DNA from: a phage | Reading direction: 5' to 3' (one strand) | Assembly: GCA_012557565.1 (NCBI GenBank) | Contig: GCA_012557565.1_3926.1 | Length of the DNA: 64,000 nt | Shown here: in pieces, positions 29,040 through 29,885 of the stretch | How the letters are laid out: every line of letters starts with the position of its first letter | Position numbering within the stretch: the first letter of the stretch is position 1 | The notes under the pieces: generated by a model | The model's input: the letters and a program-made list of their open reading frames with translations, nothing else | What the model was told of the DNA's origin: nothing | The model's database searches: none | Position numbers and translations under genes: made by a program

Positions 29040-29216
29040 AATTAGGAGATTCCTATGAAGCCTTATGGTAGACATGGTAAAGTTGAAATTGCAAGTTGTG
29101 GTTGCTGTGCTTCTCACGATGGTGAAGAAGATTACTACAAGTGGCGTACAGACCATCGTAGACGCTTTCTCAGAAGAGATAAGAAGAAAGCTAGACAGGA
29201 ATCTCGAAAGAATATT

Positions 29217-29293
29217 GCAGAATTAGTTCAAACGGATAGAGCAGCAACCTACGAAGTTGTTTGTTAGGGGTTCGAATCCCTTATTCTGCACCA
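29217..29293 (+). tRNA. tRNA-Arg (anticodon ACG)
   Basis: Perfect acceptor GCAGAAT/ATTCTGC, anticodon stem GCAAC/GTTGT, loop CTACGAA; overlaps the 3' part of track ORF 29055-29267. Confidence 0.65.
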
Positions 29294-29311
29294 ATTTTAG
29301 AAGGTAATTAT

Positions 29312-29539
29312 ATGCGTAAACTCATTATTGAAAGGCATAAAGATGCTGACAAGATTGAAACAACACAAGTTGGGGACACTGACTTCATTCTTGTAGGTTG
29401 GAAATGTGACCCAATAGCAGTTATGAAGGTTGTTCATGGTCTTGCAGGAATTGAATTTAATCAAATCATATTTGAAACGCTATTACCAGAAAATCAGGAT
29501 ACGTGTAATAACGCATATGTTCTGACAAGAGTTCGTTAG
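29312..29539 (+). CDS. hypothetical small protein, paralogue A (start trimmed from track 29261)
   Basis: ATG at 29312 with SD AAGG upstream; many positions shared with paralogue B (FETLLPEN.DTCNNAY.LTRV). Confidence 0.45.
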   Translation: MRKLIIERHKDADKIETTQVGDTDFILVGWKCDPIAVMKVVHGLAGIEFNQIIFETLLPENQDTCNNAYVLTRVR

Positions 29540-29563
29540 GGGTTCGAATCCCTTATTCTGCAC
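29536..29563 (+). pseudogene. duplicated 3' fragment of tRNA-Arg(ACG) (T-arm plus acceptor 3' strand)
   Basis: TTAGGGGTTCGAATCCCTTATTCTGCAC identical to the 3' end of tRNA 29217-29293; no 5' half. Confidence 0.6.
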
Positions 29564-29583
29564 AAAATTTAAAAGGGTAACTT

Positions 29584-29811
29584 ATGTTTAAACTCATAGT
29601 TGAAAAACACCCAGAAGATGACAAGCTTGAAACAGGGAGATTTGGAGATACTTTCTTTATCAGAGTTGGCTGGAAAGCTGACCCATTAGAAGTTAGAAAG
29701 ATTGTCTACAACTTTGCTGGTTTGGAATTAAAGCAAGTCATCTTTGAAACAATGTTGCCAGAAAATAAAGATACATGCAATAACGCATATATTCTTACAA
29801 GAGTTAGTTAG
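29584..29811 (+). CDS. hypothetical small protein, paralogue B
   Basis: 75-aa ORF with SD AAGGG upstream; tandem to paralogue A. Confidence 0.45.
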   Translation: MFKLIVEKHPEDDKLETGRFGDTFFIRVGWKADPLEVRKIVYNFAGLELKQVIFETMLPENKDTCNNAYILTRVS

Positions 29812-29885
29812 GGGATTAGTTTACAAGGTTAAAACCTCGGTCTTTGAAATCGAAGAAGTTGGTTCAATTCCAACATCCCCCGCCA
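29810..29885 (+). tRNA. tRNA-Gln (anticodon TTG)
   Basis: Acceptor AGGGGAT/ATCCCCC, D-stem GTTT/AAAC, anticodon loop CTTTGAA, T-arm GTTGG-TTCAATT-CCAAC. Confidence 0.6.

What the first reader, a model, noticed from the sequence alone, without database searches (positions are those of the whole stretch)
29205..29885. Tandem paralogous small ORFs inside the tRNA cluster, each followed by a copy of the tRNA-Arg 3' end
Two 75-aa ORFs (29312-29539 and 29584-29811) share many positions, including a near-identical C-terminal block (FETLLPEN.DTCNNAY.LTRV), and each has its own SD. The first is preceded by intact tRNA-Arg(ACG) and followed by an exact duplicate of that tRNA's T-arm and acceptor 3' strand with no 5' half; the second runs into tRNA-Gln, whose 5' end resembles the same junction. 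This looks like a cassette duplicated by recombination at tRNA sequence, with both copies since diverged while staying open, so the protein is probably functional.
Basis: seen in the sequence. Interest (0 to 1): 0.6.

Follow-up and report, generated by a model that had tools for sequence, protein, structure and literature searches.

The report
Two gene alleles stacked in tandem
Two divergent versions of one small accessory phage gene of unknown function were joined head to tail by a crossover at a 12-base match inside a tRNA gene, which left a tRNA fragment as a scar; this is tidy but ordinary phage genome shuffling.

Summary
A 272-bp unit occurs twice head to tail (29259-29530, 29531-29802; 74% identity). 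Each unit holds a 75-aa ORF with its own Shine-Dalgarno sequence. Unit 2 begins with a copy of the 3' part of tRNA-Arg(ACG).

The window is a Mooglevirus (Felix-O1-like) phage, close to Citrobacter phage KMM4.

The two ORFs did not diverge after a local duplication. Each unit has a close single-copy counterpart at the same Arg|Gln site in other phages: unit 1 is 98% identical to ESh21, and unit 2, including its spacer, is 91.5% identical to SFPB. The tRNA fragment is almost pristine.

The array is therefore best read as a recent unequal crossover. It occurred at the motif GTTNGTTAGGGG, which lies in the tRNA-Arg variable loop/T-stem and again at the ORF end/tRNA-Gln start, between phages carrying alleles that had already diverged. 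The motif marks all three unit boundaries and occurs nowhere else in 64 kb.

Five independent sequences carry the array. One further phage carries an exact ORF1/ORF2 chimera.

The gene is real: dN/dS is 0.05-0.27 and it belongs to phrog_14202. It is dispensable, restricted to this phage group, and has no informative sequence or fold match. Ancestrally it overlaps a downstream DUF7338 membrane-protein gene by 1-4 nt.

Interest is low to moderate.

The parts
29055..29267 (+). Upstream 70-aa ORF (phrog_10765). Its last 17 codons and its stop codon lie inside tRNA-Arg. This is context, not part of the repeat.
   Evidence: pN/pS is 0.05-0.47 over the first 54 codons among 11 relatives.
29217..29293 (+). 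Intact tRNA-Arg(ACG).
   Evidence: ARAGORN; Rfam tRNA model, 59.6 bits.
29259..29270 (+). Boundary 12-mer GTTTGTTAGGGG (tRNA-Arg variable loop/T-stem). It contains the TAG that ends the upstream ORF.
   Evidence: three matches in 64 kb against 0.01 expected.
29259..29530 (+). Repeat unit 1 (allele A): tRNA-Arg 3' part, 18-nt spacer and ORF1.
   Evidence: family D1; 98.2% identical to the ESh21 single-copy unit and 97.8% to UViG_1525.
29300..29304 (+). Shine-Dalgarno-like GAAGG for ORF1.
   Evidence: Read from the sequence.
29312..29539 (+). ORF1, 75 aa, allele A of phrog_14202. Its stop TAG lies in the tRNA fragment.
   Evidence: (E 4.9e-34).
29531..29565 (+). Copy of the tRNA-Arg 3' part: boundary 12-mer GTTCGTTAGGGG, T arm, acceptor 3' strand, and CAA in place of CCA. 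Read here as a recombination scar.
   Evidence: No tRNA is called there. It folds no better than shuffled sequence (z 0.17). It is the only part of unit 2 that varies among carriers.
29531..29802 (+). Repeat unit 2 (allele B): tRNA-Arg fragment, B-type spacer and ORF2.
   Evidence: 91.5% identical to the SFPB and KMM2 single-copy units, 74% to unit 1.
29573..29577 (+). Shine-Dalgarno-like AAGGG for ORF2.
   Evidence: Read from the sequence.
29584..29811 (+). ORF2, 75 aa, allele B of phrog_14202. The AG of its stop TAG forms nucleotides 1-2 of tRNA-Gln.
   Evidence: (E 1.2e-37).
29803..29814 (+). Boundary 12-mer GTTAGTTAGGGG (ORF2 end plus the tRNA-Gln 5' end).
29810..29885 (+). tRNA-Gln(TTG).
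   Evidence: (56.6 bits).

Best explanation
The locus is a recent stacking of two alleles of one accessory gene.

Background state. In Felix-O1-like phages (Ounavirinae), the gap between tRNA-Arg(ACG) and tRNA-Gln(TTG) ancestrally holds a small gene (75-80 aa, phrog_14202) that overlaps a downstream DUF7338 membrane-protein gene by 1-4 nt. In many Mooglevirus genomes DUF7338 is gone. The small gene then ends ...AGAGTTCGTTAG|GGGATTAG, borrowing its stop codon from the 5' edge of tRNA-Gln. That end happens to match 11 of 12 bases inside tRNA-Arg (GTT[T/A]GTTAGGGG), so every single-copy genome carries a 12-bp direct repeat around the segment 'tRNA-Arg 3' part + spacer + ORF'.

The event. An unequal (illegitimate) crossover occurred in the perfect 8-nt core GTTAGGGG. 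On one side was the ORF end of a phage with allele A. On the other was the tRNA-Arg of a phage with the already divergent allele B. The product is tRNA-Arg - ORF-A - [tRNA-Arg 3' fragment - B spacer - ORF-B] - tRNA-Gln.

Consequences. The fragment is a passive scar that is starting to decay. Both ORFs stay intact because each was a working gene when joined. The array can be lost again by recombination between the copies. Both ORFs are presumably expressed from the polycistronic tRNA transcript, each from its own SD.

Function of the protein (inferred, low confidence). It is a small soluble acidic alpha/beta protein acting in a dispensable, fast-diversifying host-interaction role, originally together with the DUF7338 membrane protein. 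Carrying two alleles may broaden the range of targets.

Shown versus inferred. Shown: the repeat anatomy, the allele relationships, purifying selection, and the distribution among phages. Inferred: the crossover between co-infecting genomes, expression, and protein function.
For: 1. Anatomy. Two 272-bp units lie in register. The 12-mer sits at all three boundaries and nowhere else in 64 kb.

2. Each unit has its own single-copy orthologue at the same site. Unit 1 is 98% identical to ESh21 and UViG_1525. Unit 2 is 91.5% identical to SFPB and KMM2, including the spacer AAATTTAAAAGGGTA[A/G]CTT that in those phages follows an intact tRNA-Arg. The junction reads as A-type ORF end (CTGACAAGAGTTCG) followed by the Arg T arm.

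3. The join is recent. The fragment differs from the intact tRNA at 1-2 of 35 nt, while the ORFs have dS 0.92 (P about 3e-9).

4. Distribution. Among 70 GenBank phage records carrying the gene, only KMM4 has two copies. A junction-specific search finds three more carriers (UViG_3300045988_004299, OIWQ01001088.1, ULRN01024863.1), all about 99% identical across the array. The ancestral single-copy + DUF7338 state is seen in HP1, EC6, wV8, L028 and the distant L033/L034.

5. The scar is drifting. In the three carriers aligned (window, KMM4, UViG_4299), the only differences inside unit 2 are two private substitutions, both within the fragment (window CCA>CAA, KMM4 T-stem C>A). That is 2 in 37 nt against 0 in 235 nt (Fisher P = 0.018). 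The two metagenome carriers likewise differ from the window inside unit 2 only at 29564, in the fragment.

6. Recombination within the gene is active. L020 is an exact unit 1/unit 2 chimera crossing over in TTGAAACA with no other mismatch. P0006/L029 is an A/B mosaic.

7. The gene is coding. dN/dS is 0.05-0.27. An AF2 model made from a 16-sequence alignment has pLDDT 81.

8. Transcription context. No promoter-like or terminator-like site lies on the + strand between 27917 and 30314.
Against: - The exact B-type parent has not been sampled; the best match is 91.5%.
- The reciprocal route (an old tandem, followed by loss of one or the other copy) is mechanistically possible through the same repeats.
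- The 11/12 match between the tRNA-Arg interior and the ORF end is longer than chance easily gives. It is shared by all A and B single-copy alleles, so an earlier tRNA-Arg-derived event may underlie it; I could not reconstruct one.
- L020 could equally be an ordinary allelic recombinant of the same two parents rather than a collapse of the array.
Confidence: 0.75

Rival explanations
1. One reading: the cassette was duplicated within one genome, and the two copies then diverged in place to 74% identity while both stayed open.
For: The units are of equal length and in register, and the boundaries lie at tRNA sequence. Both ORFs are intact with dN/dS 0.27.
Against: - Each copy has a much closer single-copy orthologue in other phages (98% and 91.5%) than the other copy (74%).
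- The unit 2 spacer is the B-type spacer.
- The non-functional tRNA fragment is nearly unchanged despite dS 0.92 between the ORFs.
- The array is confined to five nearly identical sequences.
Confidence: 0.08
2. The tandem is old, and the single-copy A and B genomes arose from it by loss of one or the other copy through the same repeats.
For: Both deletions are feasible: one through the 35-nt tRNA repeat, the other through the 12-mer. All single-copy alleles share the same ORF-end junction. L020 shows that a single-gene recombinant of the two copies exists, as a deletion within the array would produce.
Against: - The fragment is pristine.
- Tandem carriers are about 99% identical to one another across the array, whereas single-copy alleles are diverse and widespread.
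- Genomes that keep DUF7338 (the ancestral state) are always single-copy.
Confidence: 0.08
3. ORF1 is a small mobile or integrated cassette that inserted into the 3' end of tRNA-Arg. On this reading the intact tRNA and the fragment are attL/attR-like direct repeats, as for genomic islands and prophages that target tRNA genes.
For: A direct repeat of the tRNA 3' part flanks ORF1. The Arg|Gln gap varies among relatives between empty, one gene and two genes.
Against: - No integrase, recombinase or homing-endonuclease domain lies in or next to the cassette; the only ORF between the repeats is the 75-aa protein, which has no Pfam hit.
- The sequence after the second repeat is homologous to that after the first along the whole 272 bp, which indicates a tandem repeat, not an insertion.
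- Single-copy genomes have no tRNA fragment.
Confidence: 0.02
4. The retained tRNA-Arg 3' fragment is functional. It might serve as a processing or stability element, or as a protected stop-codon context, for the ORF1 message within the tRNA precursor transcript.
For: The ORF1 stop lies in a fragment that cannot be an RNase P substrate. The stop of ORF2, and of every single-copy allele lacking DUF7338, straddles the predicted RNase P site of tRNA-Gln. The fragment is intact in three of five carriers.
Against: - On its own it forms only a weak T-arm hairpin, no better than shuffled sequence (z 0.17).
- Two of five very close carriers already have private substitutions in it, one of which breaks the T stem.
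- Its presence follows automatically from where the crossover occurred.
Confidence: 0.05

Closest known systems
Tandem duplication and gene stacking by unequal or microhomology-mediated (illegitimate) recombination in mosaic phage genomes
   Same: Head-to-tail units of equal length. The boundaries lie at a short shared sequence (8-nt perfect core, 11 of 12 overall). Relatives show a single-copy state, the array can collapse to a chimera, and the flanks are mosaic among carriers.
   Different: The two units were already about 26% divergent alleles when joined, so this is stacking of alleles from different genomes rather than copying of one gene. The crossover point lies inside a tRNA gene, which leaves a half-tRNA scar.
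tRNA-targeting integrative elements (prophages and genomic islands flanked by a duplicated tRNA 3' end)
   Same: An intact tRNA, then cargo, then a direct repeat of the 3' part of the same tRNA.
   Different: There is no integrase. The 'cargo' and the sequence beyond the second repeat are homologous to each other. The repeat starts in the variable loop at a motif that is also present at the far boundary.
phrog_14202 (uncharacterised protein family; for example Shigella phage SFPB_122, Sf17_gp25, EC6 AFU62355)
   Same: Both ORFs are full-length members (E 5e-34 and 1e-37). They sit at the syntenic position in the tRNA array.
   Different: Here there are two members in tandem, and the DUF7338 partner found downstream in Felixounavirus, HP1 and distant relatives is missing.
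Small accessory ORFs interspersed in the tRNA arrays of large lytic phages (my own background knowledge of T4- and T5-like phages; not tested here)
   Same: Small, dispensable ORFs with their own SD sit between tRNA genes, with no promoter or terminator nearby.
   Different: Here the stop codons are supplied by tRNA sequence, and the family keeps its place in tRNA arrays even in distant relatives with a different tRNA order.

Membership tests
phrog_14202 protein family | Full-length, significant match to the family HMM | tested here: met
   ORF1: E 4.9e-34 over residues 1-75 of a 76-position profile. ORF2: E 1.2e-37 over residues 1-74 of 76.
phrog_14202 protein family | Evolves as a protein-coding gene | tested here: met
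   dN/dS is 0.05-0.27 across nine alleles. There are 20 invariant columns in a 16-sequence alignment.
Tandem segmental repeat from unequal/illegitimate recombination | Head-to-tail units of equal length, homologous over their whole length | tested here: met
   Units of 272 and 272 bp, 74% identical, with no gaps (family D1).
Tandem segmental repeat from unequal/illegitimate recombination | The short homology at the unit boundaries also flanks the unit in single-copy relatives | tested here: met
   GTTNGTTAGGGG occurs three times in the window. Single-copy Mooglevirus genomes with the CGT ending, such as ESh21 and Sf17, carry the 12-mer twice, once in tRNA-Arg and once at the ORF end. SFPB, KMM2 and L029 deviate from it by one base at the ORF end.
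Tandem segmental repeat from unequal/illegitimate recombination | The copies are each other's closest relatives (expected for a simple duplication) | tested here: not met
   Each copy is closer to single-copy orthologues in other phages (98% and 91.5%) than to the other copy (74%). Hence the reading as stacked alleles.
tRNA-targeting integrative element | Integrase or recombinase encoded within or beside the element | tested here: not met
   Only the 75-aa ORF lies between the repeats. It has no Pfam, NCBIfam or meaningful PADLOC hit.
tRNA-targeting integrative element | Direct repeat of the tRNA 3' end at the far boundary | tested here: met
   29 nt exact and 34 of 37 overall (family D3).
Homing-endonuclease cassette | HNH, GIY-YIG, LAGLIDADG or a related nuclease domain | tested here: not met
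Functional tRNA or tRNA-like element (for the fragment at 29531-29565) | Cloverleaf or minihelix with a paired acceptor stem | tested here: not met
   ARAGORN and the Rfam tRNA model give no call there. Only a T-arm hairpin forms, at -8.1 kcal/mol and z 0.17.
ORF75-DUF7338 two-gene module | A DUF7338 gene immediately downstream, with overlapping stop and start codons | tested here: not met
   It is present in HP1, EC6, L028 and L033 but absent from the whole window (tblastn best E 8.4).

The most novel reading that the evidence does not exclude
The family may be functionally tied to the tRNA array rather than merely parked in it.

- It stays embedded between tRNA genes even in very distant relatives with a different tRNA order (L032, L033, L036).
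- In genomes lacking DUF7338, its stop codon U|AG straddles the predicted RNase P cleavage site of tRNA-Gln. This holds for two independent junction types.
- The upstream 70-aa gene ends 51 nt inside tRNA-Arg.

If tRNA processing and translation of these messages compete, so that RNase P cleavage yields non-stop mRNAs, then expression would be coupled to tRNA maturation. In that case the tRNA-Arg fragment after ORF1 would give that copy an uncleavable stop codon. Alternatively, the protein acts on tRNAs or against host anticodon nucleases, and the stacked alleles widen its specificity.
Probability: 0.1. Interest if true: 0.6.

Novelty: new member of a known kind. Interest (0 to 1): 0.3.

Why it matters
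This is a clean, datable example of how phage accessory loci gain copies.

- A chance 12-bp match between a tRNA interior and a gene end lets two co-circulating alleles be stacked in one genome.
- A neutral half-tRNA scar acts as the clock.
- A recombinant (L020) shows the kind of product that loss of one unit would give.

It corrects the intuitive reading of such arrays as 'duplication then divergence'. It also shows that KMM4's annotation misses ORF2 and that wV8 annotates the wrong strand at this site.

The 75-aa family (phrog_14202) is real, selected, dispensable, unusually divergent compared with its flanks, and still without a function. That makes it a reasonable candidate for a host-interaction factor, but nothing here changes current understanding of phage biology.

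Tried and rejected
Function searches
- Pfam, NCBIfam and PADLOC scans gave nothing credible. The only PADLOC hit was to a methyltransferase model at 16 bits, which I treat as noise.
- A profile search against PDB sequences gave one 19-bit hit at E 0.008 with no significant stretch; rejected.
- An exhaustive HMM search of 1.84 billion representative proteins gave 6 hits. Three of these were new. The two short ones (P0016, P0018) lie in phage tRNA arrays. The third, a 742-aa repeat protein (P0017), matched only residues 23-63 and I judged it spurious.
- A Foldseek search of BFVD returned only the protein's own orthologue from phage Sf18. The afdb50 library was unavailable.

The tRNA fragment
- Rfam with permissive filters across 28950-29950 found no RNA family at the fragment other than a 9.7-bit tmRNA T-arm match.
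- An RNA fold of the fragment was no better than shuffled sequence.
- I looked for a 5' acceptor partner (GCAGAAT) upstream in ORF1. Only an imperfect GCAGGAAT occurs, about 85 nt away, which does not give tRNA-like geometry; rejected.

Other checks
- The integrative-element reading was rejected for lack of any recombinase and because the flanks of the repeat are homologous.
- An assembly artefact was rejected: the array is present in a cultured isolate (KMM4) and four other independent assemblies, and the copies are only 74% alike.
- The literature held no description of this locus and no transcriptome or proteome data for Mooglevirus.
- I could not reconstruct how the shared ORF end AGAGTTCGTTAG arose when DUF7338 was lost. 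A tRNA-Arg-derived origin of the last two codons is possible but unproven.

Full report
**What is in the sequence**

The window is a Felix-O1-like myovirus of the genus Mooglevirus. Region 29000-29900 is 99.3% identical to Citrobacter phage BSwM KMM4. It lies in a 25-gene tRNA array.

All the stated features are present.
- tRNA-Arg(ACG) is at 29217-29293.
- ORF1 is at 29312-29539 and ORF2 at 29584-29811, 75 aa each.
- tRNA-Gln(TTG) is at 29810-29885.
- Each ORF has an SD-like AAGG/AGGG 6-7 nt upstream of its ATG.

The repeat finder shows that the feature is a 272-bp unit present twice in register (29259-29530 and 29531-29802), 74% identical without gaps. Unit 2 opens with a copy of the tRNA-Arg 3' part. 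That copy is 29 nt exact, covering the T arm, the acceptor 3' strand and the discriminator. The encoded CCA reads CAA in this window. Neither ARAGORN nor Rfam calls a tRNA there, and on its own the fragment folds no better than shuffled sequence.

The motif GTTNGTTAGGGG occurs exactly three times in the 64 kb, at the three unit boundaries. The expectation by chance is 0.01.

**What relatives show**

The gap between tRNA-Arg and tRNA-Gln is a variable spot in this phage group.

| State of the Arg-Gln gap | Examples |
|---|---|
| Empty (9-nt spacer) | Michonne |
| One 75-aa ORF | ESh21, ESh19, SFPB, Sf17, 3HA14, UViG_1525 |
| 75-80-aa ORF plus a 185-aa DUF7338 gene, overlapping by 1-4 nt | HP1, EC6, wV8, L028 |
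| DUF7338 only | pEC-M719-6WT.1 |
| Two 75-aa ORFs | window, KMM4 |

The pair of small ORF plus overlapping DUF7338, followed by tRNA-Gln(TTG), recurs even with a very distant homologue (P0016). I therefore take it as the ancestral state.

Where DUF7338 has been lost, the small ORF runs to a TAG supplied by the 5' edge of tRNA-Gln. This has happened with two different junctions:
- AGAGTTCGTTAG|GGGATTAG in Mooglevirus;
- AGGAATCACTAG|GGGATTAG in L025.

**Origin of the array**

I aligned the whole unit (tRNA-Arg 3' part, spacer and ORF) from 11 relatives.
- Unit 1 is 98.2% identical to the single-copy unit of ESh21 and 97.8% to UViG_1525. I call this allele A.
- Unit 2 is 91.5% identical to SFPB and KMM2 and 89.7% to HP1 and ESh19. 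I call this allele B.
- The match of unit 2 includes the spacer AAATTTAAAAGGGTA[A/G]CTT, which in those phages follows an intact tRNA-Arg. The A-type spacer, ATTTTAGAAGGTAATTAT, is different.
- The internal junction reads as an A-type ORF end (CTGACAAGAGTTCGTTAGGGG) followed directly by the Arg T arm (TTCGAATCC...).

In every single-copy Mooglevirus genome the ORF end matches 11 of 12 bases in the variable loop/T-stem of tRNA-Arg, with a perfect 8-nt core GTTAGGGG. An unequal crossover in that core, between the ORF end of an A-type genome and the tRNA-Arg of a B-type genome, gives exactly the observed structure.

**Why not duplication followed by divergence**

The ORFs differ with dS about 0.92. 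At that distance, a functionless 35-nt tRNA fragment should differ from its source at about 18 positions. It differs at 1-2 (binomial P about 3e-9).

The divergence jumps from about 0% to about 35% exactly at the end of the tRNA sequence. That is expected if both parents carried a selectively maintained tRNA-Arg.

Among 70 GenBank phage records with the gene, only KMM4 has two copies. A junction-specific search adds UViG_3300045988_004299 and the metagenome contigs OIWQ01001088.1 and ULRN01024863.1. All five carriers are about 99% identical across the array. Their flanks, however, differ by up to 10-25% per 100 nt. So the module is real, has persisted, and has moved among backbones by homologous recombination, but it is young.

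In the three carriers aligned (window, KMM4, UViG_4299), the only differences inside unit 2 are two private substitutions in the tRNA fragment. These are CCA>CAA at 29564 in the window and a T-stem C>A in KMM4. That is 2 in 37 nt against 0 in 235 nt (Fisher P = 0.018). The two metagenome carriers likewise differ from the window inside unit 2 only at 29564. This fits a scar that is beginning to drift.

**Instability and mosaicism**

A Logan contig (L020, 85 kb) carries a single gene (P0002). It is identical to unit 1 up to TTGAAACA and identical to unit 2 afterwards, with no other mismatch. It is either the collapse product of the array or a plain allelic recombinant of the same two parents; I cannot separate these.

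P0006/L029 is another A/B mosaic. KMM2's single copy has a 1-nt deletion in a CCC run. That is either a frameshift or a sequencing error.

**Is the protein real, and what is it?**

dN/dS is 0.27 between ORF1 and ORF2 and 0.05-0.25 among orthologues. Both ORFs are full-length members of phrog_14202, a family of unknown function.

The family is narrow: 15 clusters at 90% identity among 5.8 billion proteins, and 6 representatives among 1.84 billion. All those I placed lie in phage tRNA arrays.

The protein is soluble and acidic, with pI about 5.5-5.8. An AF2 model (pLDDT 81) is a small beta-beta-beta-alpha-beta-alpha domain. It has no informative match:
- Pfam, NCBIfam, PADLOC and PDB sequence searches gave nothing meaningful;
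- BFVD returned only its own orthologue.

The gene is dispensable, since it is absent from Michonne and many relatives. It is far more divergent between alleles (26%) than its flanks; the upstream 70-aa gene differs by only about 5%.

My best guess, at low confidence, is an accessory host-interaction factor that originally worked with the DUF7338 membrane protein. DUF7338 itself is widespread, occurring in 564 phage records including T4-like phages, but it is absent from this window.

**Expression context (inferred)**

Consensus-like promoters lie at 25882 and 27443, and a terminator-like hairpin at 31325. The + strand has no promoter-like or terminator-like site between 27917 and 30314. The ORFs would therefore be translated from the tRNA precursor transcript.

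One notable consequence follows. The ORF2 stop, U|AG, straddles the predicted RNase P site of tRNA-Gln, whereas the ORF1 stop lies in a fragment that cannot be an RNase P substrate. Whether this matters is untested.

**Verdict**

The best explanation is a recent microhomology-mediated unequal crossover that stacked two pre-existing alleles, with a half-tRNA left as a scar (confidence about 0.75). In kind this is known phage mosaicism acting on an already catalogued but uncharacterised family. I rate it as a new member of a known kind, with interest 0.3.

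Noticed in passing
window 29055-29267 (+): A 70-aa ORF (phrog_10765; basic, with a CGCC motif) is conserved in Mooglevirus, with pN/pS 0.05-0.47 over its first 54 codons. Its last 17 codons and its stop codon are the first 51 nt of tRNA-Arg(ACG) on the same strand. RNase P cleavage of the precursor would therefore truncate its message. The ORF is absent from Felixounavirus wV8, where tRNA-Leu directly abuts tRNA-Arg.
   Followed up: partly
window 29809-29811 / tRNA-Gln 29810-29885: The ORF2 stop codon TAG overlaps nucleotides 1-2 of tRNA-Gln(TTG), which has an A1-C72 mismatch. 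The same arrangement is found in all single-copy alleles lacking DUF7338, and with an independent junction in L025. A transcript processed by RNase P would have no stop codon.
   Followed up: partly
L005 913-1697; L007 1501-2297; L028 1201-1985; L033 3001-3785: In relatives, the small ORF is followed by a 185-aa DUF7338 (phrog_2143) membrane-protein gene whose start overlaps the small ORF's stop (ATGA or TAATG). HP1 annotates this gene as 'holin' with no evident basis. DUF7338 occurs in 564 phage records, including 170-180-kb T4-like Klebsiella and Cronobacter phages, and so is far more widespread than the small ORF (70 records).
   Followed up: partly
L001 (KMM4, OP902293) 1185-1412; L006 (wV8) 1440-1715: There are annotation gaps in public records. 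KMM4 annotates ORF1 but not ORF2. wV8 annotates a minus-strand ORF overlapping tRNA-Arg instead of the conserved plus-strand gene.
   Followed up: yes
L023 (KMM2, OP902295) about 930-935: KMM2's single B-type copy has a 1-nt deletion in a CCC run (GCTGA-CCAC), which shifts the reading frame. This is either real decay of the gene in one relative or a homopolymer sequencing error.
   Followed up: no
window 28100-28800 and 30300-31000, compared with L009, L010 and L020: The flanks of the tRNA block are strongly mosaic among close relatives, with up to 26 mismatches per 100 nt, while 28900-30200 is almost identical. This indicates frequent homologous exchange around the tRNA array.
   Followed up: partly
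L010 about 1478-1483 (UViG_3300045988_001525): In this single-copy relative, the intact tRNA-Arg gene itself encodes CAA instead of CCA at its 3' end. It carries the same change as the window's fragment, so an encoded CCA is evidently not required in these phages.
   Followed up: no
window 25882-25911 and 27443-27471 (+): Two near-consensus sigma-70-type promoters (TTGACA, then 17-18 nt, then TATAGT; 11 of 12 matches) sit at the head of the tRNA array and inside it. They probably drive the tRNA/ORF transcription units.
   Followed up: no
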